From an uncultured Christensenella sp. (GTDB taxonomy: Bacteria > Bacillota > Clostridia > Christensenellales > Aristaeellaceae): a DNA stretch of 50,465 nt. Numbering within the stretch: position 1 is the first letter of the stretch; each line of letters starts with the position of its first letter. Made by a program: the position numbers and the translations under genes. The stretch lies in contig CAYFSN010000001.1 in the NCBI GenBank assembly GCA_964345845.1, positions 11,469 to 61,933 of the forward strand, read 5' to 3'. Below the pieces are notes generated by a model. The model did no database searches. It was not told where the DNA came from and saw nothing but the letters and a program-made list of their open reading frames with translations. Positions 7,196 through 45,324 of this stretch are shown one piece after another.

Positions 7196-8063
7196 CCAAC
7201 AGGACGGTATCACGGTCGACCTGAATCTTCTAAACATCATCGCGAGCGCCGCGTCACAGGTAGAGGGCATTTCGATCCCCTGCTACGCCGCGTTGGAGTT
7301 GTGCGATGACGCAAAGATACACAAAGTCAACCTGCAGCAGCGACAAGTAGATGCATCCACTGATGTGCTGAGTTTTCCCACCGTTGAATATCCTGTTGGG
7401 GGCACTGCAGGGCAAGTTCCTCAAAGGCTTCAGCAGGAATGGGACACAGAACTTGGCGGCTGCTTTCTGGGGGAGATCTTTATTTCGGTGCCCCATGCGG
7501 AAGCGCAGGCCCTGGCTTACGGCCATAGTTTTCAACGTGAACTTGGTTACTTGCTGGCACACGGCCTGATGCACTTGTGTGGCTATGACCATCAGAACGA
7601 ACAGGAGAAAAAAGTCATGCGTGAACAGGAGGAAGCCATTCTGCTGAAGGCTGATGAAAAACGGTTATTGGACGCCGCCAGACAAGCCCTGAAGCAAGCC
7701 TATGTCCCGTACTCTAACTATCGGGTAGGGGCAGCCTTGCTGGGCGTAGACGGCAAAATCTACACCGGCTGCAATGTAGAAAACGCATCCTTTGGGTTAA
7801 CCAATTGCGGCGAACGCACGGCGGTCTTTAAGGCGGTCAGTGAGGGATGCACTCAGTTCAAGGCCATTGCCATCGCTGCAAATGGGTTTTCCCCCTGGCC
7901 CTGCGGTGCGTGCCGGCAGGTGCTCAGCGAATTCTGCGCCGATATTCCCATTTTTGTTACCTGGGATGACACGCACGTTGAGAAAACCACTTTACAGGAC
8001 CTCCTCCCCCATAGTTTCTCCCCCGCCAGCGGGGCAACTGACGCCATAAAGAAAGGGCAGTAA
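7179..8063 (+). CDS. ybeY/cdd: in-frame fusion of rRNA maturation endoribonuclease YbeY (about res 1-158) and cytidine deaminase (about res 160-294)
   Basis: N-half has the YbeY zinc motif HGLMHLCGYDH with SFPT and GEIFIS. C-half has YVPYSNYRVGAAL, CNVENASFGLTNCGERTA and PCGACRQV, the cytidine deaminase zinc motifs. No stop codon lies between the two halves. Confidence 0.88.
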   Translation: MKLLINQQDGITVDLNLLNIIASAASQVEGISIPCYAALELCDDAKIHKVNLQQRQVDASTDVLSFPTVEYPVGGTAGQVPQRLQQEWDTELGGCFLGEIFISVPHAEAQALAYGHSFQRELGYLLAHGLMHLCGYDHQNEQEKKVMREQEEAILLKADEKRLLDAARQALKQAYVPYSNYRVGAALLGVDGKIYTGCNVENASFGLTNCGERTAVFKAVSEGCTQFKAIAIAANGFSPWPCGACRQVLSEFCADIPIFVTWDDTHVEKTTLQDLLPHSFSPASGATDAIKKGQ

Positions 8064-8956: not shown

Positions 8957-10042
8957 ATGTTTATGAGATGTAAACGTTCGCTGGCTATGCTGTGCATTCT
9001 CCTTCTGCTCATCCCCTTTACCGGGCAGGGCCAGGAAATGCAGCGCTTTTCAACATCCTTCTTTGGCGCCTTTGATACGGTCATCACCATCATTGGTTTC
9101 GCGCCAAACGCGGATGCGTTTGAACAAATCACCGAGAAAGCAAAGCCCCGCTTTGATGAACTCAATCAGCTATATGATAAATACAACGACTACCCTGGCG
9201 TTACCAACATACGCACCCTGAACAAACAGGCTGCCCAAGCGCCGGTAAAGGTTGAGCAGGACTTGTTTGACCTCATCAAGTTCTCCAAGGAAATGTACAG
9301 CAGCACCGATGGTCTGGTGAATATCGCCTTTGGCTCGGTGTTGGAGTTGTGGCATGACAGCAGGGAGGCCGCTGAGTTTAACCCTGAGGGTGCTGCGCCC
9401 CCTGAGATGGACGCACTGAACAGTGCAAATAGTCACACCAACATTGATGATGTTGTGCTTGACGAAGGGGCACTCACGGTGTTCTTTCAAGACCCGGACC
9501 TCAGGCTTGATGTTGGTGCCGTAGCCAAGGGTTATGCTGTCGAAGTTGTTGCACGAGAAGTGCTGCAGGATGCTATGCCCTCATACATCATCAACGCCGG
9601 CGGCAATGTGCGTACTGGACAGGCTCCGCTGGACGGCCGGGCGCAATGGGGCGTTTCCATTCAAGATCCGGATGGGTTTGTGATGGGCGATGCCAACAGC
9701 GACATAATGGAAGTGCTGTTTTTAAAAGACACCTCCATTGTTACCAGCGGCGATTATCAGCGCTTCTTTACCTTTGAAGGAAAGCGGTACCACCACATCA
9801 TTTCCCCCATTACGCTGATGCCGCCAAACTACTTCCGCTCCGTTACTGTGGTGACAGAGGACTCCGCACTTGCAGACTGGCTGAGCACCACCTTGTTTCT
9901 AATGGAACAGTCTGAAGGCGAAACGTTCCTCGAAAACTGGGAGGGTGTTGAAGCGCTGTGGGTGATGAATGATCGAACCATCCTGATGACAGAGGGGCTT
10001 AAACCGCACGCCCGCTCTGAGGGCGCTACCAACCCACGCTAA
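8957..10042 (+). CDS. apbE: FAD:protein FMN transferase (ApbE family), extracytoplasmic
   Basis: Signal/anchor MFMRCKRSLAMLCILLLLIPF, then ApbE motifs (FGAFDTVITI, AKGYAVE, INAGGNV, WGVSIQDP, VTSGDYQRFF..GKRYHHIISP, ADWLSTTLF). ATG at 8957 is 1 nt after the era stop; the 8792 ORF start overlaps era and is rejected. Confidence 0.88.
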   Translation: MFMRCKRSLAMLCILLLLIPFTGQGQEMQRFSTSFFGAFDTVITIIGFAPNADAFEQITEKAKPRFDELNQLYDKYNDYPGVTNIRTLNKQAAQAPVKVEQDLFDLIKFSKEMYSSTDGLVNIAFGSVLELWHDSREAAEFNPEGAAPPEMDALNSANSHTNIDDVVLDEGALTVFFQDPDLRLDVGAVAKGYAVEVVAREVLQDAMPSYIINAGGNVRTGQAPLDGRAQWGVSIQDPDGFVMGDANSDIMEVLFLKDTSIVTSGDYQRFFTFEGKRYHHIISPITLMPPNYFRSVTVVTEDSALADWLSTTLFLMEQSEGETFLENWEGVEALWVMNDRTILMTEGLKPHARSEGATNPR

Positions 10043-13929: not shown

Positions 13930-14631
13930 TTACGCGGTAATGGGTCGGCTTTTCAGTGCGCTGAGTTTCTGGGTGACCACCTCAAGGCATACCTGCTTGC
14001 TTTCCTCCAGGTGATGCTGCGACAACTCATCAAACCCAGCCTGGTCTCGCTGCACCAGTAACTCCAGCATGCGATGGTGCTCTTTGTGCGCGTCGGAGCG
14101 GCGGACAATACTGGCAATGGACATCGTCGCAAAACGCATGATGTACTCTTCCTGGCTGTCAATGACGCGCAGGATGCGCCGCTTGTCGGAGATGTGCTCT
14201 ATGGTGCGGTGAAACTGGCGGTTGAGTGTGGCCAGCGCTTCTGCGTCGCCGGCATCCTGCGCCACATCCATCTGGGATACAATGGCTCTTAACTGCTCGA
14301 TGTGCTCATCGGTCAAGTTTTCCATAACGGACGGCGTAATCAGTAGCATCAGCGCATTTCTGATGGTAAAAATCTCTTCAATGTCTTCAATGGTGAAGGC
14401 GCGCACAACAACGCCCCGGCGCACTTCGTAGGATACCAGGCCATCCAGTTCAAGCTTTCGGAAAGCTTCGCGCAGCGGCGTGCGGCTGATATGCAGTTTG
14501 TTCGCATAAACAGTCTCCACAATACGCGAACCCGCAGGCAGTTCGCCGGTGATAATGGCATGCTTCAACGTTTCATAGGCAATATCCCGTATGGGTTTGC
14601 TTACTTGATTCATGTCCCTGGTCATAGGCAT
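13930..14631 (-). CDS. GntR family transcriptional regulator (FadR/FCD subfamily)
   Basis: wHTH segment IAYETLKHAIITGELPAGSRIVETVYANKLHISRTPLREAFRKLELDGLV, then an all-helical FCD-like C-domain. The start is uncertain: ATGs at 14661, 14646, 14631 and 14625. 14631 is preferred because GGAAGG precedes it and the predicted promoter leaves almost no leader for 14661. Confidence 0.8.
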   Translation of the reverse strand: MPMTRDMNQVSKPIRDIAYETLKHAIITGELPAGSRIVETVYANKLHISRTPLREAFRKLELDGLVSYEVRRGVVVRAFTIEDIEEIFTIRNALMLLITPSVMENLTDEHIEQLRAIVSQMDVAQDAGDAEALATLNRQFHRTIEHISDKRRILRVIDSQEEYIMRFATMSIASIVRRSDAHKEHHRMLELLVQRDQAGFDELSQHHLEESKQVCLEVVTQKLSALKSRPITA

Positions 14632-14664
14632 AGGACCCGCCTTCCTCATGCTTGATACCATAAT

Positions 14665-32207: not shown

Positions 32208-32245
32208 CACATAAGAACCGGGCGCCCGCAGAACGGACGCCCGGG
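32208..32245 (-). terminator. intrinsic terminator-like hairpin after rnfB (weak U tract)
   Basis: Minus strand has CCGGGCGTCCG-TTCTG-CGGGCGCCCGG (11 bp including one G-U pair) followed by TTCTTATGT. Confidence 0.55.
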
Positions 32246-32265: not shown

Positions 32266-33066
32266 TTAGGCGCTCAGGGTAATGCACTGATTGGGGCATA
32301 CAGCGATACAAGCCTCGCACTGCGTGCACTTCGTTACGTCAATTTCCGCCAGGAAGTTGTTGACGTGGATGGCATCGTACTCGCATGCCCGCTCGCAGCG
32401 CTTGCAGCCAATGCAGGAGCGGCTGCAGCTTTCCATGGCAGGCTTCGGCATCTGCGTGTTCATGCAGCGCACCGTTACGGTGGCCGCGCGCGGCAGCAAC
32501 TTAATTAGATGGTTGGGGCACGCGGGCACGCAAGCACCGCAAGCTGTGCATTTTTCGGGATCAATAACGCAAAGATTGTTCTCAAAGGAGATGGCGTCAA
32601 ACTTGCATACGCGGAAACAATCGCCCAAGCCTACGCAAGCGGTAGGACACATTTTCGGTCCACCGGCAAGTTGCATGGCATGGTGACAACTGGTATGACC
32701 CTGATATTGCGCCTTATCCTTGGCGACACCATCGCCGCCCTGGCAGCGAATGCGCGCCACCATGGGATCTTCCACTTCGGCGTTTACGCCCATAATCTCC
32801 GCAAGCTTCGCCGCAGAGGCAGCACCACCGGGTGTGCATCCATTGACGGGTGCTTCCCCGCGTACAACCGCTTCAGAAAAAGGATCACAGCCAGGATAGC
32901 CGCACACGCCGCAGTTGGCGCCAGCCACGTTCGCACGCACCAGCTCCACCCTGGGGTCAACAGGTACATGGAAAATCTTCGCGGCAAGGCTCAGCAATGC
33001 GCCAAAGGCAACACCCAAACCACCCAGTACCGCAACAGCACTCAAAATTGCACTTGTATTCATCAT
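32266..33066 (-). CDS. rnfB: Rnf electron transport complex subunit B (polyferredoxin)
   Basis: N-terminal TM helix, then CGVCGYPGCDPF and four CxxCxxCxxxCP 4Fe-4S motifs. AAGGAGG precedes the ATG at 33064-33066. Confidence 0.9.
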   Translation of the reverse strand: MMNTSAILSAVAVLGGLGVAFGALLSLAAKIFHVPVDPRVELVRANVAGANCGVCGYPGCDPFSEAVVRGEAPVNGCTPGGAASAAKLAEIMGVNAEVEDPMVARIRCQGGDGVAKDKAQYQGHTSCHHAMQLAGGPKMCPTACVGLGDCFRVCKFDAISFENNLCVIDPEKCTACGACVPACPNHLIKLLPRAATVTVRCMNTQMPKPAMESCSRSCIGCKRCERACEYDAIHVNNFLAEIDVTKCTQCEACIAVCPNQCITLSA

Positions 33067-33073
33067 GTCCTCC

Positions 33074-33664
33074 TTACTTAACCAGTCCGGAGAAGCCCAG
33101 GAACGCAACGGCCATCAGGCCAGCGATGACCAGGCTGATGGAAAAGCCCTTGAATGCCTTGGGAATATCGGAGGTTTCGAGACGTTCACGTACACCCGCC
33201 ATCAGCACGATGGCCAGCAGGAAGCCCAGCGCACCAAACACGCCGCTCAGCACCGACTCCAGCAGGTTATAGCCGCTGCGCATGTTCAGCAGGGCAACAC
33301 CCAGCACCGCGCAGTTGGTGGTAATCAGCGGCAGATAGATGCCCAGCGCGCTGTATAGCGCCGGCATGGCCTTTTTCATGAACATTTCGACAAACTGCAC
33401 CAGTGCTGCAATAATCAGAATAAACGCGATGGTGTTCAGGTACACCAGGTCCAGCGGGACCAGGATGTACTCATAGGCGAGATAGGCGAACAGCGATGCC
33501 ACACCCATAACAAACGTAACCGCAACACCCATGTCGGTGGCTGTTTCCAGTTTGTTTGATACGCCCAGATAAGGACAGCTCCCCAGGAACCGGGAGAAAA
33601 TAAAGTTGTTGGTAAAGACGCAGTTAACAAAGAAAAGGAAAATACCAATGTCGTTTAGCCTCAT
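33074..33664 (-). CDS. rnfA: Rnf complex subunit A
   Basis: 196 aa with six TM helices and NNFIFSRFLGSCPYLGVS, the RnfA/NqrE-type motif. Confidence 0.92.
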   Translation of the reverse strand: MRLNDIGIFLFFVNCVFTNNFIFSRFLGSCPYLGVSNKLETATDMGVAVTFVMGVASLFAYLAYEYILVPLDLVYLNTIAFILIIAALVQFVEMFMKKAMPALYSALGIYLPLITTNCAVLGVALLNMRSGYNLLESVLSGVFGALGFLLAIVLMAGVRERLETSDIPKAFKGFSISLVIAGLMAVAFLGFSGLVK

Positions 33665-34296
33665 GCCGCCTGCACCTCCCTTTTCTTCGCTTTTGCCTGC
33701 CGGCGGTTGCCAATGGCATTAATGATGCCCAGCAGCAAGCCGTACATCAGGAACCCGCCCGGCGCCAGGATGAAAATCAGCACCGGCTCAAAGCCCGCGC
33801 CCATCACCTGCATGTTAAACAGGGTACCGGCACCCAGCAGTTCACGGAAACCGCCAATGAGGATAAGAGCCAGTGTGAAACCAAGGCCCATGCCAACGCC
33901 GTCCATTGCAGACGCGGCCACGCCATTCTTGCTGGCAAAGGCTTCCGCACGCGCCAGGATGATGCAGTTCACCACAATCAGCGGCAGGAAGATGCCCAGC
34001 GCATCGTACAAAGAGGGAATAAAGGCCTGCATCAACAACTGCACCATGGTGACGAACGTACAAATAACCACAATGAACGCGGGAATACGCACCTTGTCCG
34101 GAATGAAGTTGCGCAGCATGGAGATAACAGCGTTGGAGCCTACAAGCACCAGTGTTGCAGCCAAGCCCATGCCAACACCATTGATGGCACTGGTGGTTAC
34201 CGCGATGGTGGGGCAGGTGCCCAATACCAAGCGGAACACGGGGTTCTCGCCAAAGATACCATTGACGAAGATGCCGCGGAGATTGTTCTTAGACAT
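33661..34296 (-). CDS. rnfE: Rnf complex subunit E
   Basis: 211 aa with GENPVFRLVLGTCPTIAVTTS, the RnfE/NqrD-type motif. Confidence 0.92.
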   Translation of the reverse strand: MSKNNLRGIFVNGIFGENPVFRLVLGTCPTIAVTTSAINGVGMGLAATLVLVGSNAVISMLRNFIPDKVRIPAFIVVICTFVTMVQLLMQAFIPSLYDALGIFLPLIVVNCIILARAEAFASKNGVAASAMDGVGMGLGFTLALILIGGFRELLGAGTLFNMQVMGAGFEPVLIFILAPGGFLMYGLLLGIINAIGNRRQAKAKKREVQAA

Positions 34297-35245
34297 GCTT
34301 TTTCACCATCCCAAATACGCGTCGTTTGGTAAAGCGGTCAATTAGCGGTGTAACACAGTTCATCAGCAGGATGGCATAGGTCACACCCTCAGGATAGGCG
34401 CCGAAGTTGCGGATAATGACCACCATGACACCACAGCCTAAACCAAAGATACACTGACCAATCTTCTGCATGGGGTTGGTCACATAGTCTGTTGCCATGA
34501 ACACAGCGCCAAACAGCACGCCGCCAGACAGCAGTGCCACCAGCGGATCGCGGCCAATCAACCAAGAGAAAATGGCCACGGTGCCCAGGAAGAAGGTGGG
34601 GACATGCCAGGAGATGGCCTTGACCACCAGCAGATACAGCAGACCAATCAAAATGGCCAGCTTGCACACCTCACCGATGGAGCCAGGAATATTGCCCAGG
34701 AACAGGTCGGCCATGGGAATGCCGGGGTTGATGCCCAGCCCCTGCGGCACCAGCGGGGTCGCACCGCTTAACGTATCCACGCCAACAGCCGCCTCGGAAG
34801 TGCCCAGCACACGCTCAGGCAGCATAAAGGTGGTCATGCGTGCCGGCCAAGAAGCCAGCAGGAAAGCGCGGGCCAGCATAGCCGGGTTCATGAAGTTGTG
34901 GCCAAGGCCGCCAAATAGTTGCTTCACCAGGACGATGGCCACCACACTGCCGATCACAGGCAGCCACAGCGGCGCGCCGGAAGGCATGTTCAAACCAACA
35001 ATCAAGCCGGTGACCACGGCGGACAAATCGGTAATGGTGACCGTCTTCTTCATGGCCTTTTGCCAAACATACTCGCAAATAACCGCGGTAATAACGGCAG
35101 CGGCCAGCACCCAGGCCGCGTGCAACCCAAACAGGTAGACACCCGCAGCAGTGGTTGGCGCCAGGGCAATCAGAACATCCAGCATCAATGTCTGGGTGTT
35201 TTCCCTGGTCAGCAGATGAGGTCCGGCAGAAACGCGCAGGCTCAT
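34289..35245 (-). CDS. rnfD: Rnf complex subunit D (FMN attachment site SGAT present)
   Basis: 318 aa polytopic protein with SAGPH at the N-terminus and DTLSGATPL, the conserved flavinylated Thr motif of RnfD/NqrB. Confidence 0.93.
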   Translation of the reverse strand: MSLRVSAGPHLLTRENTQTLMLDVLIALAPTTAAGVYLFGLHAAWVLAAAVITAVICEYVWQKAMKKTVTITDLSAVVTGLIVGLNMPSGAPLWLPVIGSVVAIVLVKQLFGGLGHNFMNPAMLARAFLLASWPARMTTFMLPERVLGTSEAAVGVDTLSGATPLVPQGLGINPGIPMADLFLGNIPGSIGEVCKLAILIGLLYLLVVKAISWHVPTFFLGTVAIFSWLIGRDPLVALLSGGVLFGAVFMATDYVTNPMQKIGQCIFGLGCGVMVVIIRNFGAYPEGVTYAILLMNCVTPLIDRFTKRRVFGMVKKHV

Positions 35246-36567
35246 TGACTATTCCTCCTTGCAGCAAGAATATCCTTTGCTTCTTTGAACACAGGCGTCA
35301 GGTAGCGATGCGCCGGACAAATGTAAGAGCACGCGCCGCAGACAATGCAGTCATTCACGTTCATCTTTTCCATTTCGTCAATGCGGCCCAGCTCGTACTG
35401 ATTGGCCAATTGATAGGGGTTCAAACCGCTGGGGCATGCTTCAATGCAGCGTCCGCAGCGGATGCAGTTGCTCGGCTCCTGAAGCTTCGCCTGCTTTTCA
35501 TTGAGCACAACGATGCCGTTGTTGGCCTTGGTCATGCTAAGTGTATCGTTGGGCAGTGCCAGCCCGGTCATGCTGCCGCCGGCAAAAATCTTGCCCGGGG
35601 TTTCGGCATACCCGCCGCAGGCCTCAATGGCGTCAGACACCAAGGTACCGATGCGCACCAACAGGTTGGACGGCTCTTTTACAATACCGGTCACTGTGGT
35701 AACACGGGAGATGAGGGGTTTCCCCTCTTCTACCGCATCGGTAATTGCGGCAGCCGTGCCCACGTTCAAGACGACAACGCCGATATCCATCGGCAAACCG
35801 CCAGAGGGCACTTCCTTGCCTGTGATGGCCTTGATAAGCTGCTTTTCACCGCCCTGCGGGTACTTGGTCTTCAATACAGCCACTTCAACGCCTTGCTTGC
35901 CCTCGCTTGCTTGCTTGACCGCCGCGATGGCATCGGGCTTGTTGTCCTCAATGCCAATGAAGCCGCGGGAGACGTTCATGGCGCGCATAACGGCCCGCAG
36001 GCCCTTGACCACGCGCTCCGGCTGTTCCACCATCAGGCGGTGGTCACTGGTAAGGAAGGTCTCGCACTCGGCGCCATTGAGAATAATGGTATCAATGGGC
36101 TTATCTTGCGGAGGCGTTAGTTTAACGTGGGTGGGGAAGCACGCACCGCCCAGGCCACAGATGCCCGCGTCCTTGATGGCGGCCACAATCCTGTCAGCGG
36201 CGGCTGTTTCTACATCACCCAAGGGGTTCAGCGCCGTCCATTCATCCTGTCCATCACTCTGAATGGTGATGCACATGGCGCTTTTTGGCCCCAGCATTTG
36301 CTTATCGGCAACTACCGTAACTTCGCCCGATACACTCGCGTGCACCGGCAGGCCAAGCCCGCCTTGCGGCTCAGCGATCACCTGGCCAAGAAGCACTTTG
36401 TCGCCCTTCTTGACGATGGGTTTGCTGTGCGCGCCAATGTGCATATTGACGGGAATGCAGACTGTTTGGGGCACCAGGGGTTTGATGGGCAATGCGCGTG
36501 TCGCGTTCTTGCCTTCCTGTACCTCGTGCAGCGGATGAATGCCGCCGCGGAAACTGAGTTTTCTCAA
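35242..36567 (-). CDS. rnfC: Rnf complex subunit C (NADH/FMN-binding, 2x4Fe-4S)
   Basis: 441 aa with GGIHP at the N-terminus, a GLGGACFPTHVK-type glycine-rich nucleotide-binding motif, ILNGAECE, and CIRCGRCIEACP...CIVCGACSYICP. Confidence 0.95.
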   Translation of the reverse strand: MRKLSFRGGIHPLHEVQEGKNATRALPIKPLVPQTVCIPVNMHIGAHSKPIVKKGDKVLLGQVIAEPQGGLGLPVHASVSGEVTVVADKQMLGPKSAMCITIQSDGQDEWTALNPLGDVETAAADRIVAAIKDAGICGLGGACFPTHVKLTPPQDKPIDTIILNGAECETFLTSDHRLMVEQPERVVKGLRAVMRAMNVSRGFIGIEDNKPDAIAAVKQASEGKQGVEVAVLKTKYPQGGEKQLIKAITGKEVPSGGLPMDIGVVVLNVGTAAAITDAVEEGKPLISRVTTVTGIVKEPSNLLVRIGTLVSDAIEACGGYAETPGKIFAGGSMTGLALPNDTLSMTKANNGIVVLNEKQAKLQEPSNCIRCGRCIEACPSGLNPYQLANQYELGRIDEMEKMNVNDCIVCGACSYICPAHRYLTPVFKEAKDILAARRNSQ

Positions 36568-36585: not shown

Positions 36586-38541
36586 TTACTTCGCCACGGA
36601 GGGCGCTGCAATCAGAAGTTCAACGGCTTCATTGACTGCGTCAATAACTGCCTGACTGGAAACAGTGGAGCCGCTGATGGTGTCAACCGCGTCCGCCTGC
36701 AGCGGCACTGCCAAACCCTCAAATGCTTTTACAAACTCCTCCGCCAGCACCTTGTCACCAATGCCGGGTGTTTCAGCGAACGCATCTTCATCCACCTGGA
36801 TGGACGCAATGGTGTTGTCAGCATTCAGCGAGACAATCACCTGGATGGGGCCGCCGAAACCTTCCGCATCGCCAGCGGCGGCACGGCCAGTCATTTGCGA
36901 GACAGGCTCCACAGCGTCAGCGCCTTGGGGAACTGCAACCAACTGTTCCATGGCGTTGTTAACAGCATCCAGTACACCGTTGCTGGAGACGGTAGCACCC
37001 GCAATGGCATCTACCATATCCCTGGAAACAGGCAGTGTTTTGCCATTGAAGCCGGCCAGGTAGTCTGCTGCCAACACCTGGTCACCAATGCCCGGCGTGT
37101 CGGCAAATTCTCCTTCGAGGACAACAACAGATGCGATGGTATTGTCAGCATTCAGCGACACCACTGCATAGATAGGCCCGTTGTAACCCTGGGCGGTGCC
37201 CAGCACGGCACGCCCTGTCATGGGCGCAGCAGTAGGGAAGGCAACAGCAGTCTCTTCCACCGCAACTTCTTCTTCAGCAGGCGCTTCCGTGGCTTCTGCC
37301 GCTTCCGCTTCCGGCTCTTCAGTCACTTCCGGCATGCCTTCAGTTTCAGCAACCGGTTCGACAACCGGTACGCTTTCATCCACAAGCTTTTCGTCAAATG
37401 CGCGGTTAATGGCATTGACTACTGCGGTGGATGTAACCGTTGCGCCCGACAGCGCATCGATGTCCTCCAAGGCCACAGGAATGGTCTTGCCAACAAACTG
37501 GTTTGTGAACGTTGCCTCCGTCGCGGGCGCGCCAAAGCCATCCGTCTCCTTGAAATCATCATCACCAACACGCAGGGCAGTGATGGTGCCGTCATCCTTT
37601 GCGGTTACAAACACCGCAACAGGACCGGCAAAGCCTTGCTCGGCAGCGGTGTAGGTGGTGCCTTCAGCAGCAGGTGCCTCTACGATGTTCTTTTCGTCAT
37701 AAGCACGGTTGATGGCCGCAACGACTGCATTCGTGGTGATGGTCGCACCGCTGATGCCATCCACCTGCGCTGCGTCAAGCGGTAAAGCCAACCCGACGAA
37801 ACCCTTGGTGAACGAATCCTCCAAAGCTGCCGCGCCGAACCCTTCCGTTTCTGCAAACGCATCATCGCCAACCTTCAGGCCGCTGATGGTGCCGTCATCC
37901 TTCACGGTTACAAACACAGCAACGGGGCCCGCGAAACCCTGCTCAGAGGCAGTGTACATGGTTCCCTCGGCGACCGTATCCGTGGGCGGGTTCAAATAGT
38001 TGTCGACCTTCGTAGCAATGCTGTTGACACCGCTGGTCACCGCGTTGGTGGTGATGGTTGCGGCGGCAATGGCGTCAACGGTGTTGTCACCCCTATCGCG
38101 CTCGCTCTTTACAGCCTTTACCGGGGTCTGTTTCATTAAAAACTGGTCAGTGAACGCAAGGTCCTTTGCCTTGGCACCCAAGCCTGCGGTTTCAGCAAAC
38201 TCAGCACCGCCAACGGATACGCCCGTCACCTTGCCGTCGTTATCCACACCGGCGATGATCTGCACGGGTCCGCCATATCCATTGACCGACACAGCGCCGA
38301 CATAGCCCACGGCCTCTCCGTTTTTCATGCCAGCGAACAACTCGCTGAGCGGCTCCAGGCTTTCCACTTCAACGGGCTCGAATGTCTCCGCATCAGGCAA
38401 TACCGTTTTGCGGGCCTCAACCTTGGACTCCGCCTCTTGCGTGGCAATGACATCCTTGGTCACCTCGTTGGTCATGGACAGGAGCAAGCCGGCAACAATG
38501 GTGATGATGCCCAGCGCGATCCAAGCCGCGATTTTCTTCAT
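36586..38541 (-). CDS. rnfG: RnfG-like membrane-anchored subunit expanded to five tandem FMN-binding (FMN_bind) modules
   Basis: TM helix KKIAAWIALGIITIVAGLLLSM is followed by an RnfG/NqrC-type module (GYGGPVQIIAGVDNDGKVTGVSV, ETAGLGAKA, VDAIAAATITT). Four further modules end in VDGISGATITT, IDALSGATVTS, VDAIAGATVSS and VDTISGSTVSS, with an acidic E/A/P linker between modules 3 and 4. ATG at 38541 is preceded by GGAGGG; the ORF-track GTG is at 38556. Confidence 0.85.
   Translation of the reverse strand: MKKIAAWIALGIITIVAGLLLSMTNEVTKDVIATQEAESKVEARKTVLPDAETFEPVEVESLEPLSELFAGMKNGEAVGYVGAVSVNGYGGPVQIIAGVDNDGKVTGVSVGGAEFAETAGLGAKAKDLAFTDQFLMKQTPVKAVKSERDRGDNTVDAIAAATITTNAVTSGVNSIATKVDNYLNPPTDTVAEGTMYTASEQGFAGPVAVFVTVKDDGTISGLKVGDDAFAETEGFGAAALEDSFTKGFVGLALPLDAAQVDGISGATITTNAVVAAINRAYDEKNIVEAPAAEGTTYTAAEQGFAGPVAVFVTAKDDGTITALRVGDDDFKETDGFGAPATEATFTNQFVGKTIPVALEDIDALSGATVTSTAVVNAINRAFDEKLVDESVPVVEPVAETEGMPEVTEEPEAEAAEATEAPAEEEVAVEETAVAFPTAAPMTGRAVLGTAQGYNGPIYAVVSLNADNTIASVVVLEGEFADTPGIGDQVLAADYLAGFNGKTLPVSRDMVDAIAGATVSSNGVLDAVNNAMEQLVAVPQGADAVEPVSQMTGRAAAGDAEGFGGPIQVIVSLNADNTIASIQVDEDAFAETPGIGDKVLAEEFVKAFEGLAVPLQADAVDTISGSTVSSQAVIDAVNEAVELLIAAPSVAK
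36606..37224 (-). repeat. intragenic tandem duplication (two units of about 327 bp) encoding FMN_bind modules 4 and 5
   Basis: GC.ATGGT.TTGTCAGCATTCAGCGA recurs near 36810 and 37135. The protein modules share MTGRA..G.A.G..GPI..VVSLNADNTIAS...V.E..FA.TPGIGD.VLA. Confidence 0.75.
37386..37974 (-). repeat. intragenic tandem duplication (two units of about 300 bp) encoding FMN_bind modules 2 and 3
   Basis: The DNA is clearly alignable by eye at a 300-nt offset (for example GATGGTGCCGTCATCCTT..CGGTTACAAACAC.GCAAC.GG.CC.GC.AA.CC.TGCTC near 37575 and 37875). The protein modules share AEGT.YTA.EQGFAGPVAVFVT.KDDGTI. Confidence 0.8.
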
Positions 38542-38574
38542 GCGATTTCCCTCCACATTATGATGAAACAGATC

Positions 38575-39186
38575 CTAAGCAATCTTGAAGCGCCCCAGCA
38601 GCGCGGAATCAAGCGAACGGCCCAGCATGCCTTCAGCAGCTGCCCTATCCCCTTTTTGCAGAGCCTGGCGAATGGCTGTACTTGACACCACTTGGCCATC
38701 CGCGGTCTTAACCTCAGGAACCACGGTGAGGCCCACACCATGCGCCTTGCACAGCACTTCCAGAGAAGTAGTGTCCGTATCGCACAGATAGCCAAAGCGA
38801 TGATCATAACCGGCTACAATGTGTTTGGCGCCCAGTCTGCCAAGCACGACCTTCTCAAAAAAAAGCGCACCGGGCATCCGCATCATTTCCTCATCAAACC
38901 GGCTGACCGCCAGCACCTCAATACCACATTGCTCCAGCAGTGCCGCCTTTTCTTGTAGGGGAGTTAACTCTACTAACTGAGTATCAGGTTTAATCAACTG
39001 AAGCGGAGGTATATTGTACGTATGCGCGCAAGGAATGATATTCATTTGCTTCGCGATATCCTTACATACATGAGCAATAGCCTGATGACCCAGGTGCACA
39101 CCATCAAAAAAACCCAGGCAAACCACCGAGGCATGTAGAGATTCTTTTGCTGGGTCTAGGATGCTTATCAATGAATTACCATCCAA
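38575..39186 (-). CDS. FAD synthetase (FMN adenylyltransferase) domain protein; RibF N-terminal half only, no riboflavin kinase domain
   Basis: VVCLGFFDGVHLGHQ, VAGYDHRFG and SSTAIRQALQKGD...AEGMLGR are the FMNAT motifs of RibF. The ORF stops (…LLGRFKIA*) where the riboflavin-kinase domain normally begins. The start codon is uncertain: TTG at 39186 has no obvious SD. It ends 18-33 nt before the rnfG-like gene. Confidence 0.8.
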   Translation of the reverse strand: MDGNSLISILDPAKESLHASVVCLGFFDGVHLGHQAIAHVCKDIAKQMNIIPCAHTYNIPPLQLIKPDTQLVELTPLQEKAALLEQCGIEVLAVSRFDEEMMRMPGALFFEKVVLGRLGAKHIVAGYDHRFGYLCDTDTTSLEVLCKAHGVGLTVVPEVKTADGQVVSSTAIRQALQKGDRAAAEGMLGRSLDSALLGRFKIA

Positions 39187-39217: not shown

Positions 39218-39246
39218 ATGTTATCATCCTACGCTTTTTCAGTCAA
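39218..39246 (-). promoter_or_regulatory. putative sigma-A promoter of the FAD synthetase-rnf operon
   Basis: Minus strand has TTGACT (39241-39246), a 17 nt spacer and TAACAT (39218-39223). Confidence 0.45.
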
Positions 39247-39441: not shown

Positions 39442-39972
39442 ATGAAAAAGTTTCTGTCGGTAGTGCTCTGCGCAATGCTTCTGGTTTCCCTGGCTTCCGC
39501 CGCCTCCGCCGAGCTGCTTGGCCTGGGCATCCACACCTACATCAACGGCACTGACGCTGGTGAAAAAGATGGCCGCGGCCAGGTGAACAGCGTTGTCTGC
39601 ACCGTGATTCTGGACGACAACAAGGTCATCAAAGCGATTCAGTTTGACACCGCCCAGACCAACGTCAACTTCGACAAAGAAGGCAAAGTCACCACCGATT
39701 TGACCGCCGAAGTGCTGTCCAAGGTTGAAAAGGGTGACGCGTACAACATGCGCCCCGCCAGTGCCATTGGCAAAGAGTGGTACGAGCAGATGGCCGCCTT
39801 TGAAGAATTCTGCGTTGGCAAGACCGTCGAAGAAGTTCTGGCCATGCCCACCTACGAGCGCGACGCCGGCCACCCCGCGGTTCCCGAAGACGCCGACCTG
39901 AAGACCAGCGTGACCATCGATGTCAGCGGTTACCTGAAGGCGCTGGAAAAGGCCGCCAACAACGCGAAATAA
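39442..39972 (+). CDS. secreted hypothetical protein (176 aa) with an FMN_bind-like layout but no canonical SGAT site
   Basis: Sec signal peptide MKKFLSVVLCAMLLVSLASAASA, strong SD and a strong terminator. GRGQVNSVVCTVILDDNKVIKAIQFD, GKEWYEQMAAFEEFCVGKTVEEV and DLKTSVTID loosely parallel the beta-sheet/helix/attachment-loop order of FMN_bind domains. Family not recognised with confidence. Confidence 0.7.
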   Translation: MKKFLSVVLCAMLLVSLASAASAELLGLGIHTYINGTDAGEKDGRGQVNSVVCTVILDDNKVIKAIQFDTAQTNVNFDKEGKVTTDLTAEVLSKVEKGDAYNMRPASAIGKEWYEQMAAFEEFCVGKTVEEVLAMPTYERDAGHPAVPEDADLKTSVTIDVSGYLKALEKAANNAK

Positions 39973-40050: not shown

Positions 40051-41268
40051 ATGAGAAGGCATTTAACCACATCCACAGAGTCACATAGGCATTTCCCCCT
40101 CTACTTTGGTGCGGTGCTGTTAGTTTTATTACTTATTGCGCTGCACCTCTTGTCGGGTGTCACTCTGCTCGCACCAACTCCGTATGACACCTATACGCGT
40201 CAAGCCATGGCGTGGCGGTCGGGCGCCCTCCACTTGTCGGAGGATGTACCCCACCTTGAGTTAGCCATCTTCGAAGGGCGGTACTATGTCAGTTTCCCGC
40301 CCGTGCCAAGCCTGGTGCTGCTGCCGCTAACGTTTCTGTTTGGAGACGCAGTCCCTGACGCGCTGTTGATGATGCTGTACGCCCTTGTCATGTACTTTGC
40401 CCTTGTTCGCCTAAGTTTAGGGCGCGGGCATTCCCCTGCGGCGTCCGCTCTCCACTCCGTATTGTTTGTAAGTGGTTCCTCGCTGCTGCCGATGCTGATG
40501 ACTGGTGCCGTCTGGTACCATGCCCAGGTGCTTGCGCTTGTGCTGACGGTACTGGCCGTTGAACAGATGAGCGCGAACAGCCCGACCATCGCACTGGTGC
40601 TGTATGCGTTGGCGGTTGGTTGCCGGCCCTTTAACGCGCTGTATGGTCCCCTGCTCATGCTGATGTACTTATGCGCGGAACACAGTACTGGAAAACAGTT
40701 GTGGACGCGCGTTCGCTCCCTCTTGCCTGGTGTATTGCTTGGTTTGCTGATTGCGTTCCTATATGGGTGGTACAATTTCGCGCGCTTTGGCAATGTATTC
40801 GAGTTCGGGCACAACTATCTGCCGGAGTTTTCCTTTCAAGGCGGAAAACAGTTCTCGTTTTCACACATCGGGGAGAACATTCGCACATTCCTGTTTGGTG
40901 TCCCTTTGGCAAACGAAAATGGCACCTTACACCTGCAGCGCTTTGGCTTCTCATTACTGATTGCCAACCCCGCTTTTCTCGGGCTTTTCTCTTGGGCGTT
41001 GTTTGATGCTTTTAAAAGGCACATCAGCTGGAAACAGGCCATCATCCTATTGGTGTACGCGGTTCACCTCTTATTGTTGCTTAGCCATCGCACCTTTGGC
41101 GGGTTTCAGTACGGCGCGCGCTACGCTGTTGATTGTTTGCCCTATGTACTGCTGTATTGGCTATATCGGCCAAGACAAAATACCAGTAGCCCCATGATGC
41201 TGGGTCTGCTGGCACTTGGTACGGTGTTAGCGGTATGGGGCAGCCTGACCATATCCCTGCCAGGCTAA
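40051..41268 (+). CDS. polytopic membrane protein, GT-C fold glycosyltransferase-like (ArnT/PMT/DUF2029-like)
   Basis: 405 aa with about 11 hydrophobic helices. The early loop (TPYDTYTRQAMAWRSG, EGRYYVSFPPVPSLVLLP) resembles the first periplasmic loop region of GT-C enzymes. The assignment is tentative. Confidence 0.45.
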   Translation: MRRHLTTSTESHRHFPLYFGAVLLVLLLIALHLLSGVTLLAPTPYDTYTRQAMAWRSGALHLSEDVPHLELAIFEGRYYVSFPPVPSLVLLPLTFLFGDAVPDALLMMLYALVMYFALVRLSLGRGHSPAASALHSVLFVSGSSLLPMLMTGAVWYHAQVLALVLTVLAVEQMSANSPTIALVLYALAVGCRPFNALYGPLLMLMYLCAEHSTGKQLWTRVRSLLPGVLLGLLIAFLYGWYNFARFGNVFEFGHNYLPEFSFQGGKQFSFSHIGENIRTFLFGVPLANENGTLHLQRFGFSLLIANPAFLGLFSWALFDAFKRHISWKQAIILLVYAVHLLLLLSHRTFGGFQYGARYAVDCLPYVLLYWLYRPRQNTSSPMMLGLLALGTVLAVWGSLTISLPG

Positions 41269-44163: not shown

Positions 44164-45324
44164 TCAAGTTGCGCTGCTGAGCCATATCGCCTGCAGTACA
44201 TTGTCAACTCCGTATAGCAATCGAAGCACCATGCTTTCGTATTGATAATCGACCAGCGTGCCGGCCGGCAGGTGATAGCGCTCCGCCAAATTGCCCTCAA
44301 GAGGCAATGAGGCAGTTTCCGGCCCCAGCACAGCGGTGACATCCTCATTGGTGGCCTTACCAGTGATCAAACCAAACAAGTTCATGCGCTGGGTGATGAT
44401 GCCAGTAACCTTGCCGCCATCCACAATAATGGCGCTTCCCCTGAACCTGTCATCCTCCAGCTGATAGCGCAGGCCACCGGGGAAACTCATGGAATCGCTT
44501 GCCTTCGGAAACATCATCAATGTCTCCTCTGCGCTGTCGCCAAGTATGACCGGCAGCCCTGGCAGGCGCGCCTGAAGGACGCTCTCACGAATGCTGTCTG
44601 CCGTTTTCTCGTTAGGAGCAAGCTTTTCGTTGACCTGCAACTGCCACAGCAATGAATCCTCAGTGATATTCAGCAATGGCGCGACTTCATCATAATGCAG
44701 ATGCAGGCTGCCAGCCCGTCCGGATAGCAGGCTGAGTTGCTGAGCGTCGTAATACAGGGTGACGCCTTGCTCATCCAGCAGCATGTTATCAAGCGGCAGC
44801 GGCAGGTAGGCATCGGCGTTCAGATAACTGCTGACGTCATCCGTGATGTGCTCCTGGATGATGTCTGCGATGCCGGCCTCCGCCTGCTCCACATCTACGA
44901 AGATATCTGCAGCGGTTACCGGCTCCCCAGTGGTCAGCCGGTACATCAAGGAACGCACGCCGTGGCTGGGACGGCCGGGACCTATGCGCCCGGATGACTC
45001 TATGCGTACACTGAGCACATCCTGCCCATCTCTTCCGGGCAGTATTGCCGCCTGAACATCACTCTGCAGGGCGCCGCCGCCATCGGATGTAGCCGCGCTG
45101 AGGTTGGAAAGCAGCGTCTCATAGCCACCATCTGCCATGATGGATTGGTTGATTCGATCTTGTACAAAGGTATTAAGCATACCTGTCAGTTTGGGCACCA
45201 GTACATAAGAGCCGTACTGCTCGTGTTTCTCAATGGTTATTTCCACTTGTGCCTGCGCTGGCAATGCCTGCAAAAGCACAGCCGACATCAGCAAGCACAG
45301 AAATACAACGTTCATGCGTTTCAT
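44164..45324 (-). CDS. secreted DUF3298/DUF4163-like (RsiV/PdaC-type) domain protein
   Basis: Signal peptide MKRMNVVFLCLLMSAVLLQALPAQA. The pattern ...SVRIESSGRIGPGRPSHGVRSLMYRLTTGEPVTAADIF resembles the DUF3298 core (Y.GGAHG...tfdl.tGk.l.l.DlF). The C-terminal half was not recognised. Confidence 0.55.
   Translation of the reverse strand: MKRMNVVFLCLLMSAVLLQALPAQAQVEITIEKHEQYGSYVLVPKLTGMLNTFVQDRINQSIMADGGYETLLSNLSAATSDGGGALQSDVQAAILPGRDGQDVLSVRIESSGRIGPGRPSHGVRSLMYRLTTGEPVTAADIFVDVEQAEAGIADIIQEHITDDVSSYLNADAYLPLPLDNMLLDEQGVTLYYDAQQLSLLSGRAGSLHLHYDEVAPLLNITEDSLLWQLQVNEKLAPNEKTADSIRESVLQARLPGLPVILGDSAEETLMMFPKASDSMSFPGGLRYQLEDDRFRGSAIIVDGGKVTGIITQRMNLFGLITGKATNEDVTAVLGPETASLPLEGNLAERYHLPAGTLVDYQYESMVLRLLYGVDNVLQAIWLSSAT

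What the first reader, a model, noticed from the sequence alone, without database searches (positions are those of the whole stretch)
36586..38556. RnfG-like subunit carrying five tandem FMN-binding modules, each with a flavinylation-type motif
Seen in sequence: the ORF directly upstream of rnfC starts like an ordinary RnfG. It has one N-terminal TM helix, GYGGPVQIIAGVDNDGKVTGVSV, ETAGLGAKA and VDAIAAATITT (Thr167, ORF numbering from 38556). It then continues through four more FMN_bind-type modules. These end in VDGISGATITT (Thr272), IDALSGATVTS (Thr372), VDAIAGATVSS (Thr522) and VDTISGSTVSS (Thr631). An acidic E/A/P-rich linker (res about 395-440) separates modules 1-3 from 4-5. Established knowledge: RnfG/NqrC are about 200 aa with one FMN_bind domain. 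The Thr of Dxx(s/t)gA(T/S) is where ApbE covalently attaches FMN on the extracytoplasmic face. Inference: this is a membrane-anchored, potentially penta-flavinylated chain physically tied to Rnf. It would be a flavin counterpart of a multihaem wire or electron buffer, and could link ferredoxin/NAD+ chemistry to an extracytoplasmic donor or acceptor. Multi-FMN_bind proteins have been noted in comparative surveys of flavinylation, but I know of no characterised Rnf complex with such a subunit. The ancestral RnfG module is also the one whose motif deviates most (AAAT instead of SGAT).
Basis: partly seen in the sequence, partly recalled or inferred. Interest (0 to 1): 0.85.

Follow-up and report, generated by a model that had tools for sequence, protein, structure and literature searches.

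The report
Rnf subunit carrying five flavin modules
This gene encodes the outward-facing RnfG subunit of an otherwise ordinary Rnf ion pump, extended by four extra flavin-carrying domains on flexible linkers; this kind of subunit was described in a 2021 genome survey but has never been tested experimentally.

Summary
The ORF runs 36586..38541 on the minus strand and gives 651 aa. Its true start is the ATG at 38541, not the GTG at 38556. It has one N-terminal membrane helix and five FMN_bind domains. Each domain scores 56-64 bits against a cut-off of 22 and carries a flavinylation-type Thr.

Residues 8-177 are a full-length RnfG (PDB 7ZC6_G, 9ERI_G). The operon is FMNAT-only FAD synthetase, rnfG(x5), rnfC, D, E, A, B, with no other rnfG. 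This gene order recurs in 7 related loci. About 55 canonical loci have rnfCDGEAB with a single-domain RnfG and no FAD synthetase gene.

AlphaFold gives five confident domains joined by disordered linkers (pTM 0.39). That is beads on a string, not a rigid wire.

The kind is not new. Méheust et al. 2021 (eLife) explicitly report multi-flavinylated RnfGs in RNF clusters, notably in Christensenellales, and propose the same side-branch idea. No such Rnf has been characterised biochemically.

Apparently undescribed details are the G-first operon with a dedicated FMNAT gene, conserved proximal modules versus fast-duplicating distal modules, and a non-Gly motif in module 1 that is a lineage trait.

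Verdict: a new member of a known, uncharacterised kind. Interest is moderate.

The parts
36586..38541 (-). rnfG with five FMN_bind modules. 651 aa, ATG at 38541, stop codon at 36586-36588.
   Evidence: 100% identical to P0001.
38458..38526 (-). Single N-terminal transmembrane anchor (residues about 6-28).
   Evidence: This is the only hydrophobic stretch in the protein. AF2 predicts a helix at 2-47. It aligns with the TM helix of RnfG 7ZC6_G.
37993..38541 (-). Module 1, a complete RnfG (residues 1-183). Acceptor Thr162 has its codon at 38056-38058. Motif VDAIAAAT.
   Evidence: phmmer gives 7zc6_G at 1.9e-22 (query 8-177 to chain 11-179 of 189) and 9eri_G at 1.7e-21. Foldseek TM-score normalised to the target is 0.68-0.70. 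FMN_bind 56.5 bits.
37693..37962 (-). Module 2 (residues 194-283). Thr267 codon at 37741-37743. Motif VDGISGAT.
   Evidence: FMN_bind 62.8 bits. pLDDT 80-90. Positional orthologue of module 2 in relatives, up to 87% identical.
37390..37659 (-). Module 3 (residues 295-384). Thr368 codon at 37438-37440. Motif IDALSGAT.
   Evidence: FMN_bind 59.1 bits. 67% identical to module 2.
37213..37389 (-). Long acidic Glu/Ala/Pro-rich linker (residues 385-443).
   Evidence: 17 D/E, 1 K/R and 7 Pro. pLDDT below 50 for residues 392-439. Seven of the relatives whose sequences were read (P0002, P0004, P0006, P0009, P0013, P0017, P0022) have a comparable linker after module 3.
36937..37212 (-). Module 4 (residues 444-535). 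Thr517 codon at 36991-36993. Motif VDAIAGAT.
   Evidence: FMN_bind 62.6 bits. 58% identical to module 5.
36607..36885 (-). Module 5 (residues 553-645). Thr626 codon at 36664-36666. Motif VDTISGST.
   Evidence: FMN_bind 64.3 bits. phmmer hit to the crystal structure of CbFMN4 domain 1, 8p2b, at 1.2e-08. Foldseek TM-score normalised to the target is 0.78.
38575..39186 (-). FMN adenylyltransferase-only FAD synthetase (203 aa, no riboflavin kinase domain). Its stop codon lies 33 nt upstream of the rnfG ATG.
   Evidence: PF06574 at 4.8e-39. Covers only the N-terminal half of RibF profiles. HxGH (GVHLGH) and SSTAIR motifs are present. Conserved immediately upstream of multi-module rnfG in L001, L003, L006, L009, L012, L014 and L084.
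35242..36567 (-). rnfC
   Evidence: TIGR01945 498 bits.
34289..35245 (-). rnfD, with its own flavinylation site (TLSGAT, Thr163).
   Evidence: TIGR01946 330 bits. Motif found.
33661..34296 (-). rnfE. It follows rnfD directly, with no rnfG in between.
   Evidence: TIGR01948 253 bits.
33074..33664 (-). rnfA
   Evidence: TIGR01943 254 bits.
32266..33108 (-). rnfB (polyferredoxin type; exact start uncertain).
   Evidence: TIGR01944 126 bits (cut-off 68.7). NF005503 scores 235.1 bits, below its cut-off of 252.
39218..39246 (-). Promoter-like site upstream of the FAD synthetase gene (TTGACT-17-TAACAT).
   Evidence: This is a consensus match only.
32218..32244 (-). Terminator-like hairpin (12 bp stem, 10 G-C pairs) between the rnfB stop and frr.
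   Evidence: This is a consensus match only, and the T tail is weak.
8957..10042 (+). ApbE flavin transferase with an N-terminal signal/anchor (MFMRCKRSLAMLCILLLLIPF). It is the presumed enzyme that flavinylates RnfG and RnfD.
   Evidence: PF02424 220 bits. N-terminus read.

Best explanation
What it is. This is the RnfG subunit of an otherwise canonical ferredoxin:NAD+ oxidoreductase (Rnf) of a Christensenellales-like member of the Clostridia.

Anatomy. Residues 1-183 form the normal RnfG: one membrane helix plus an extracytoplasmic FMN domain. In canonical Rnf this domain shuttles electrons between the RnfA/E metal centre and the RnfD flavin. Four more FMN_bind domains are fused to the end of its C-terminal helix. 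Two proximal domains sit on linkers of about 10 residues. A 59-residue acidic linker follows, then two distal domains.

Proposed mechanism.
1. The exported ApbE attaches FMN to one Thr per domain, using FAD as donor. The FMN adenylyltransferase encoded at the head of the operon probably helps supply that FAD.
2. The result is a flexible, tethered relay of up to five flavins on the outer face of the membrane.
3. The relay exchanges electrons with the exposed, mobile RnfG flavin through collisions between domains.
4. This gives Rnf a side branch to, or from, acceptors or donors in the cell wall or medium. Candidates are soluble flavins or quinones, metals, O2 or a partner reductase.

Shown here by computation: domain identity, the acceptor Thr residues, the operon structure and its conservation, and the flexible-linker architecture.

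Inferred: flavinylation of all five sites, assembly into Rnf, the direction and partner of electron flow, and the FAD-supply role of the upstream gene.
For: Domain and subunit identity.
- Five FMN_bind domains each pass the Pfam threshold.
- The N-terminal 177 residues align end to end with the RnfG of solved Rnf complexes. The AF2 model superposes on 9eri_G and 7zc6_G with TM-score (normalised to the target) of 0.68-0.70.
- TIGR01947 scores above its cut-off, and nqrC scores below its cut-off.

Operon.
- The order is FADsyn-rnfG-C-D-E-A-B with no second rnfG.
- A promoter-like site and a terminator-like site bracket the operon.
- RnfD keeps its own flavinylation site.
- The same gene order occurs in L001, L003, L006, L009, L014, L082 and L084, although the flanking genes differ.
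- About 55 canonical loci have C-D-G-E-A-B, a single-domain RnfG and no FADsyn gene.

Selection on the flavin sites.
- 864 of 870 modules in 118 homologues keep a flavinylation-type motif: 848 with Thr and 16 with Ser.
- The protein has no Cys and no His, so haem and Fe-S cofactors are unlikely.

Flavinylation machinery. ApbE with a signal/anchor is encoded in the window.

Architecture. AF2 gives five confident domains. In each, the acceptor Thr sits at the N-terminus of the last helix, as in RnfG. The linkers are disordered.

Precedents from the literature.
- Multi-FMN proteins SaFMN3 and CbFMN4 are multiply flavinylated by ApbE in E. coli. SaFMN3 has a midpoint potential of -184 mV and is reoxidised by O2 (PMC10339131).
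- The RnfG FMN is exposed and RnfG is highly mobile (PMC9588780).
- The same hypothesis has been published for this class (PMC8238504).
Against: - There is no experimental evidence for this protein or for any multi-module RnfG.
- No candidate terminal reductase, cell-wall anchor or acceptor-binding domain is encoded nearby. The neighbours are housekeeping genes.
- The C-terminus has no sorting motif.
- Module 1 has Ala at the usual Gly position, which lowered flavinylation to about 50% in one tested substrate.
- A drain from the RnfG flavin could short-circuit ion pumping.
- Related RnfG-like multi-FMN proteins also occur away from rnf genes (L081 and L083). The RnfG-like head therefore does not by itself prove Rnf membership.
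- The rest of this genome could not be searched for a second rnfG.
Confidence: 0.6

Rival explanations
1. Electron buffer or O2 scavenger rather than a conduit. The extra flavins store up to eight additional electrons, or burn them on traces of O2 at the cell surface. This would protect or poise Rnf in a strict anaerobe, with no dedicated external partner.
For: No partner reductase is encoded nearby. Reduced SaFMN3 is reoxidised by O2 and shows a single potential of -184 mV. Flexible linkers fit a reservoir as well as they fit a relay.
Against: The distal modules vary from 2 to at least 8 copies between relatives, and the long linker is conserved. These features suggest selection for reach. 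A buffer would not need a 59-residue spacer.
Confidence: 0.2
2. The protein does not work with Rnf. Like the orphan RnfG-like multi-FMN proteins, its head docks on another membrane electron carrier, and the true RnfG is encoded elsewhere in the genome.
For: Orphan relatives lie next to ApbE only, with no rnf genes within 10 kb (L081 and L083). Only 50 kb of this genome is visible.
Against: The gene is embedded in the rnf transcription unit, which has no other rnfG. That arrangement is conserved in 7 divergent loci. Module 1 is a full-length RnfG including the TM helix. No canonical locus had both arrangements.
Confidence: 0.08
3. The extra modules are mainly structural, acting as a spacer, shield or wall-penetrating stalk, or as redundant spare copies of the shuttle domain. 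Their flavins would have no separate electron-transfer role, or some modules would be unflavinylated.
For: Tandem domain arrays with fast copy-number change are typical of surface structural proteins. pTM is low.
Against: 99% of 870 modules keep the acceptor Thr/Ser and the FMN-binding loops. A pure spacer would lose them. Comparable arrays are fully flavinylated in vitro.
Confidence: 0.07
4. Electron input rather than output. The array collects electrons from an extracellular donor (reduced flavins, a partner organism or a surface enzyme) and feeds them into Rnf towards NAD+. With the ion gradient, they could go towards ferredoxin.
For: Rnf is reversible (PMC12052999). Flavin potentials near -180 to -200 mV lie above NAD+/NADH and ferredoxin. 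Input would therefore need energy, which Rnf can couple.
Against: Electron flow from -184 mV flavins to NAD+ (-320 mV) is thermodynamically uphill. No donor enzyme is encoded nearby.
Confidence: 0.05

Closest known systems
Multi-flavinylated RnfG in RNF gene clusters (Méheust, Huang, Rivera-Lugo, Banfield & Light, eLife 2021; PMC8238504)
   Same: Same architecture: an RnfG with more than one FMN_bind domain, encoded in an rnf cluster. It occurs mostly in Gram-positive Clostridia and is highlighted in Christensenellales. The proposed role is the same, a second electron path to extracytosolic acceptors.
   Different: The Christensenellales subset highlighted in that paper also carries a multihaem domain. 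This protein has no Cys and no CxxCH. The main text of the paper does not mention the rnfG-first gene order or the FMNAT-only gene. Nothing in the class has been tested biochemically.
Canonical RnfG (C. tetanomorphum 7ZC6 chain G; A. woodii 9ERI chain G)
   Same: Residues 8-177 align over the whole length of canonical RnfG: TM helix, beta-domain, and acceptor Thr at the start of the last helix. TIGR01947 scores above its cut-off.
   Different: Canonical RnfG is 189-207 aa (the lengths of chains 7zc6_G and 9eri_G) with one domain. It is encoded between rnfD and rnfE (about 55 loci). Here 470 extra residues carry four more domains, and the gene sits ahead of rnfC.
CbFMN4 and SaFMN3 multi-FMN proteins (Tong et al., BBA Adv 2023; PDB 8P2B, 8P2A)
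   Same: Tandem FMN_bind domains on flexible linkers. Module 5 matches CbFMN4 domain 1 by sequence and by fold. Multiple flavinylation by ApbE has been demonstrated for these proteins.
   Different: No RnfG head or rnf operon was noted for them here. Their physiological role is also unknown.
Rnf with the multihaem cytochrome MmcA in Methanosarcina acetivorans (PMC6703419; bioRxiv 10.1101/2022.07.20.500911)
   Same: An Rnf complex with an added multi-cofactor module on its outer face, linked to extracellular electron transfer (abstracts). This is the closest functional analogy.
   Different: The cofactors are c-type haems on a separate subunit. Here they are flavins fused to RnfG. The organism is archaeal. 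This is analogy, not homology.
PplA of the Listeria flavin-based extracellular electron transfer system (from my own knowledge of Light et al. 2018; not tested here)
   Same: An extracytoplasmic protein with two ApbE(FmnB)-flavinylated FMN_bind domains that passes electrons to external acceptors.
   Different: PplA is a lipoprotein fed by a quinone-dependent Ndh2/EetAB route. Here there is a TM-anchored RnfG head and no recognisable lipobox (LLLSMT; read by eye). No EET genes appeared among the ORFs annotated in the window.

Membership tests
RnfG (TIGR01947; subunit G of RnfABCDGE) | Sequence scores above the curated family cut-off. | tested here: met
   284 bits against a cut-off of 102. Best stretch is residues 13-181 on profile positions 2-182 of 187.
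RnfG (TIGR01947; subunit G of RnfABCDGE) | One N-terminal TM helix plus an extracytoplasmic FMN_bind domain, with the acceptor Thr at the N-terminus of the terminal helix. | tested here: met
   Thr162 aligns with the Thr of the GAT motif in 7zc6_G, which Vitt et al. number Thr164.
RnfG (TIGR01947; subunit G of RnfABCDGE) | Encoded with rnfC, D, E, A and B, and is the only rnfG of the operon. | tested here: met
   The position is atypical, ahead of rnfC, but it is conserved in 7 related loci.
RnfG (TIGR01947; subunit G of RnfABCDGE) | About 200 aa with a single FMN domain. | tested here: not met
   651 aa with five domains. This is the feature that makes it a variant.
RnfG (TIGR01947; subunit G of RnfABCDGE) | Covalent FMN, and physical presence in the purified complex. 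| not testable with these tools
   Needs MS, in-gel fluorescence and purification.
Multi-flavinylated proteins (Méheust et al. 2021) | More than one FMN_bind domain, each with a D-x-x-(S/T)-G-A-(S/T)-like site. | tested here: met
   There are five domains. The motifs are AAAT, SGAT, SGAT, AGAT and SGST.
Multi-flavinylated proteins (Méheust et al. 2021) | Extracytosolic location, and ApbE present in the genome. | tested here: met
   There is a single N-terminal anchor with RnfG topology. ApbE with a signal/anchor is at 8957..10042.
NqrC (TIGR01938) | Score above the equivalog cut-off, and an nqr operon context. | tested here: not met
   82 bits against a cut-off of 144. The neighbours are rnfC and rnfB, not nqrA and nqrF.
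Multihaem cytochrome conduits or nanowires | CxxCH haem-binding motifs. | tested here: not met
   The protein has no Cys and no His. None of 120 homologues has a CxxCH. The relation is functional analogy only.
Listeria-type flavin EET (PplA) | Lipoprotein signal, and a locus with Ndh2, EetA/B and DmkA. | tested here: not met
   No lipobox is visible at the N-terminus in the translation (read by eye). No such genes appeared among the ORFs annotated in the window.

The most novel reading that the evidence does not exclude
In a sizeable group of Christensenellales-like bacteria known mostly from metagenome-assembled genomes (several from animal gut or rumen samples), Rnf has been rebuilt into a ferredoxin-driven, ion-pumping extracellular electron-transfer machine. 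An operon-encoded FMN adenylyltransferase boosts FAD supply for heavy ApbE flavinylation. The RnfG flavin hands electrons to two conserved proximal flavin domains. A long acidic linker carries a fast-evolving distal flavin array through the cell wall. Its copy number would be tuned, by tandem duplication, to wall thickness or acceptor. This would be a haem-free, protein-tethered 'flavin relay' that couples fermentation redox balance directly to external acceptors.
Probability: 0.3. Interest if true: 0.75.

Novelty: new member of a known kind. Interest (0 to 1): 0.45.

Why it matters
Multi-flavinylated proteins are widespread. Méheust et al. counted 2081 proteins in 1530 genomes. Here, at least 251 representatives of 50%-identity clusters match this protein at E <= 1e-30. 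Their function is unknown.

An RnfG-fused array is the most tractable case, for three reasons:
- The electron source (Rnf) is known.
- The assay exists (ferredoxin:NAD+ activity versus reduction of external acceptors).
- Truncations are easy to design.

If the side-branch model holds, it would show how haem-poor Gram-positive anaerobes wire ferredoxin-level reducing power to the outside while still pumping ions. It would also provide a genetically encoded, length-tunable flavin relay for bioelectronics.

For the scan itself, the main message is that the finding is real. However, the class and the hypothesis were published in 2021.

Tried and rejected
1. Exact look-up of the protein's contig found nothing on record, so the rest of the source genome could not be searched for a second rnfG.
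2. Supplementary file 1 of the eLife paper is stored truncated. It had no hits for Christensenellales, PF06574 or FAD_syn. I could not get the paper's count or gene order for multi-flavinylated RnfG clusters.
3. I tested whether the divergently transcribed 176-aa secreted ORF (39442..39972) is a degenerate FMN_bind domain. It has no Pfam family, and hhalign against the five modules gives probability 0.1. Rejected.
4. I looked for haem, Fe-S or sorting motifs in the protein and in 120 homologues. None were found.
5. I considered misassembly of repeats. This was rejected because the DNA copies are 74% identical or less, and the same 90%-identity cluster holds two more 651-aa members from other assemblies.
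6. I considered NqrC membership. Rejected because the score is below the cut-off.
7. Weak TonB_C hits (and the precomputed list) fall on the first beta-strands of FMN_bind modules and are below threshold. Ignored.
8. Literature searches for any biochemical work on a multi-module RnfG found none.
9. Flavin-flavin distances could not be measured, because the structure tool returns no coordinates and the inter-domain geometry is unreliable (pTM 0.39).
Full report
OBSERVATION

The ORF 36586..38556 on the minus strand is present. Its real start is the ATG at 38541. A GGAGG lies 8 nt upstream of that ATG, and the GTG at 38556 sits inside this ribosome-binding site. The product is 651 aa and is identical to a protein already in public data (P0001).

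Pfam FMN_bind matches five stretches (260 bits). Scanned separately, the five modules score 56.5, 62.8, 59.1, 62.6 and 64.3 bits against a cut-off of 22. TIGR01947 rnfG scores 284 bits against a cut-off of 102, centred on residues 13-181. nqrC stays below its cut-off.

The acceptor Thr residues are 162, 267, 368, 517 and 626 in ATG numbering.

There is a single hydrophobic stretch, at residues about 6-28. The protein has no Cys and no His, and its pI is 4.05.

The modules are old duplicates. Modules 2 and 3 are 67% identical, modules 4 and 5 are 58% identical, and all other pairs are 31-44% identical. At the DNA level identity is 74% or less. The same 90%-identity cluster holds two more 651-aa members from other assemblies. 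A repeat-collapse or chimeric assembly artefact is therefore unlikely.

WHAT IT IS

Residues 8-177 align end to end with the RnfG chains of solved Rnf complexes: 7zc6_G at 1.9e-22 and 9eri_G at 1.7e-21.

An AlphaFold2 model built on 24 homologues has mean pLDDT 80.9. It shows a long N-terminal helix followed by five confident copies of the same fold (beta-strands followed by helices). In every copy the acceptor Thr is the first residue of the last helix. The segments 288-292, 392-439 and 538-551 have pLDDT below 50, and pTM is 0.39. The model therefore shows independent domains on flexible linkers.

Foldseek places the model on RnfG of A. woodii and C. tetanomorphum, with TM-score normalised to the target of 0.68-0.70. 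NqrC follows. The crystal structure of CbFMN4 domain 1 matches at 0.78.

GENOMIC CONTEXT

The minus-strand gene order is as follows:
- an FMN-adenylyltransferase-only FAD synthetase (38575..39186, 203 aa, with HxGH and SSTAIR motifs);
- rnfG(x5);
- rnfC, rnfD, rnfE, rnfA, rnfB;
- then frr, uppS and cdsA.

There is no rnfG between rnfD and rnfE. RnfD keeps its own SGAT site at Thr163. A promoter-like site lies just upstream of the FAD synthetase gene, and a 12-bp hairpin follows rnfB (consensus matches only). An ApbE with an N-terminal signal/anchor is encoded at about 8957..10042. PolC shows the organism is a Bacillota member. The closest named relatives of the protein are Christensenellales MAGs.

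COMPARATIVE EVIDENCE

Distribution.
- A word-indexed search found 593 relatives. The best 120 are 522-1135 aa long. The loose motif pattern used matches 4-13 times per protein, and some of those matches are spurious.
- An exhaustive search of 50%-identity representatives gave 251 proteins at E <= 1e-30, up to 1636 aa long.

Selection on the sites. Of 870 modules in 118 homologues, 864 keep a flavinylation-type motif: 848 with Thr and 16 with Ser. This is strong evidence that the sites are under selection.

Module evolution.
- The proximal modules 1-3 are positional orthologues between species.
- The distal modules are most similar within each protein, often 90-100% identical, and their number varies.
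- The array therefore grows and shrinks by recent tandem duplication behind a conserved core of RnfG, two proximal modules and the long linker.

Gene order. I scanned one genome per species and labelled the Rnf genes by tblastn. Two classes emerged.
- About 55 loci have the canonical rnfC-D-G-E-A-B order with a single-domain RnfG and no FAD synthetase gene.
- Five complete loci (L001, L003, L006, L009, L014), plus L084 and the window, have FADsyn-rnfG(multi)-C-D-E-A-B.
- L082 has ApbE-NusG_II-rnfG(multi)-C-D-E-A-B.

L003, L014 and L084 share the wider ftsK...frr synteny with the window. L001, L006 and L009 do not, so the FADsyn-rnfG linkage has survived rearrangement of the flanks.

Not every RnfG-like multi-FMN protein is in an rnf operon. 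The large P0026 clade and P0077 are orphan genes next to ApbE.

THE MODULE 1 MOTIF

Three results bear on this.
- Within this clade, module 1 is typically (T/A/S)AAT.
- Canonical single-domain RnfGs from neighbouring Christensenellales and Oscillospiraceae loci carry TSAT or ASAT, whereas Lachnospiraceae carry SGAT.
- In a tested ApbE substrate, Gly-to-Ala lowered flavinylation to about 50% and did not abolish it. Only loss of the Thr did that (review PMC12052999).

The non-Gly motif is therefore a lineage trait of genuine RnfG and not a sign of a decaying ancestral module.

MECHANISM (INFERRED)

In C. tetanomorphum Rnf, RnfG is extracellular and highly mobile. Its FMN is 'attached in an exposed fashion' to the Thr at the start of the terminal helix. 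RnfG rotates to shuttle electrons from the RnfA/E iron to the RnfD flavin (PMC9588780).

Here the extra domains start 10 residues after that terminal helix, so module 2 can plausibly reach the exposed RnfG flavin.

The linkers are 10, 11, 59 and 17 residues long. Their contour lengths are about 3.6, 4.0, 21 and 6 nm at 0.36 nm per residue. With five domains, each of which I assume to be about 3 nm across (not measured), the maximal reach is tens of nanometres. That is my estimate only. It is of the order of a Gram-positive wall.

Multi-FMN proteins can be fully flavinylated by ApbE. SaFMN3 titrates at -184 mV and is reoxidised by O2 (PMC10339131).

The best-supported reading is a flexible, collision-based flavin relay. 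It gives Rnf a side branch to extracytoplasmic acceptors, and the operon's FMNAT contributes FAD, the ApbE donor.

What is missing:
- any experimental evidence;
- any nearby partner enzyme;
- knowledge of whether a second rnfG exists elsewhere in this genome.

Rival readings are scored in the report: buffer or O2 scavenger, non-Rnf partner, structural spacer, and electron input.

COMPARISON WITH THE LITERATURE

Méheust et al. 2021 (PMC8238504) describe multi-flavinylated proteins: 2081 proteins in 1530 genomes, with up to 13 sites, mostly in Gram-positive bacteria. [quoted passage not shown] They also describe a Christensenellales subset that carries a multihaem domain.

Huang et al. 2024 (PMC11334425) describe beads-on-a-string AlphaFold models for such proteins.

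I found no paper that characterises a multi-module RnfG. The main text of the eLife paper does not mention a FAD synthetase association.

The class and the hypothesis are therefore known. Four details appear to be new, though modest:
- the G-first operon with a dedicated FMNAT gene;
- the split between proximal-conserved and distal-expanding modules;
- the lineage explanation for the module 1 motif;
- this particular haem-free, five-module member.

VERDICT

- Observation: confirmed.
- Interpretation: partly supported. The identity is right. The function is untested, and the novelty is overstated.
- Novelty: a new member of a known but uncharacterised kind.
- Interest: 0.45.

Noticed in passing
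window 38575..39186 (-): This is a stand-alone FMN adenylyltransferase: a FAD_syn domain only, 203 aa, with no riboflavin kinase half. It heads the rnf operon. It is conserved immediately upstream of multi-module rnfG in L001, L003, L006, L009, L012, L014 and L084, and is absent from about 55 canonical rnf loci. The usual ribF position after truB is occupied by a GntR/FCD regulator (13930..14661).
   Followed up: partly
window 39442..39972 (+) and 40051..41268 (+): Two genes are transcribed divergently from the rnf operon. One is a 176-aa protein with a clear signal peptide. The other is a 405-aa polytopic membrane protein. Neither has a Pfam family. Both are conserved in place and orientation in a Christensenellales genome (L084, 8577-9110 and 7272-8474). 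The secreted protein is not related to FMN_bind (hhalign probability 0.1).
   Followed up: partly
L081 (10001-14232) and L083 (8913-13189): Large clades of RnfG-headed multi-FMN proteins (920-1062 aa, 7-9 modules) are orphan genes next to ApbE, with no rnf genes within 10 kb. One 90%-identity cluster of this type has 214 member sequences (P0098). What their RnfG-like head docks on is unknown.
   Followed up: no
L082 8480-17523: This is a variant operon: ApbE, a NusG_II-domain protein, and a 1072-aa RnfG-like protein, followed by rnfCDEAB. The loose motif pattern matches this protein 13 times. That count includes TDAT tetrads in the inter-module linkers, so it overcounts the modules. An extra FMN_bind module sits ahead of the RnfG head. 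An Mrp-type antiporter cluster lies next to the operon on the opposite strand.
   Followed up: no
L020, L022-L026 (canonical rnfG) versus the Lachnospiraceae loci L028-L080: Canonical single-domain RnfGs of Christensenellales and Oscillospiraceae carry TSAT or ASAT at the flavinylation site, with Ser at the 'invariant' Gly position. Lachnospiraceae carry SGAT. This is a lineage-specific relaxation of the ApbE motif.
   Followed up: partly
window 44164..45324 (-): A 386-aa ORF between the M16 peptidase gene and ftsK has no Pfam family. A 390-aa counterpart sits at the same place in L084.
   Followed up: no
window 7179..8063 (+): One ORF appears to fuse YbeY endoribonuclease with a cytidine/deoxycytidylate deaminase domain.
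   Followed up: no
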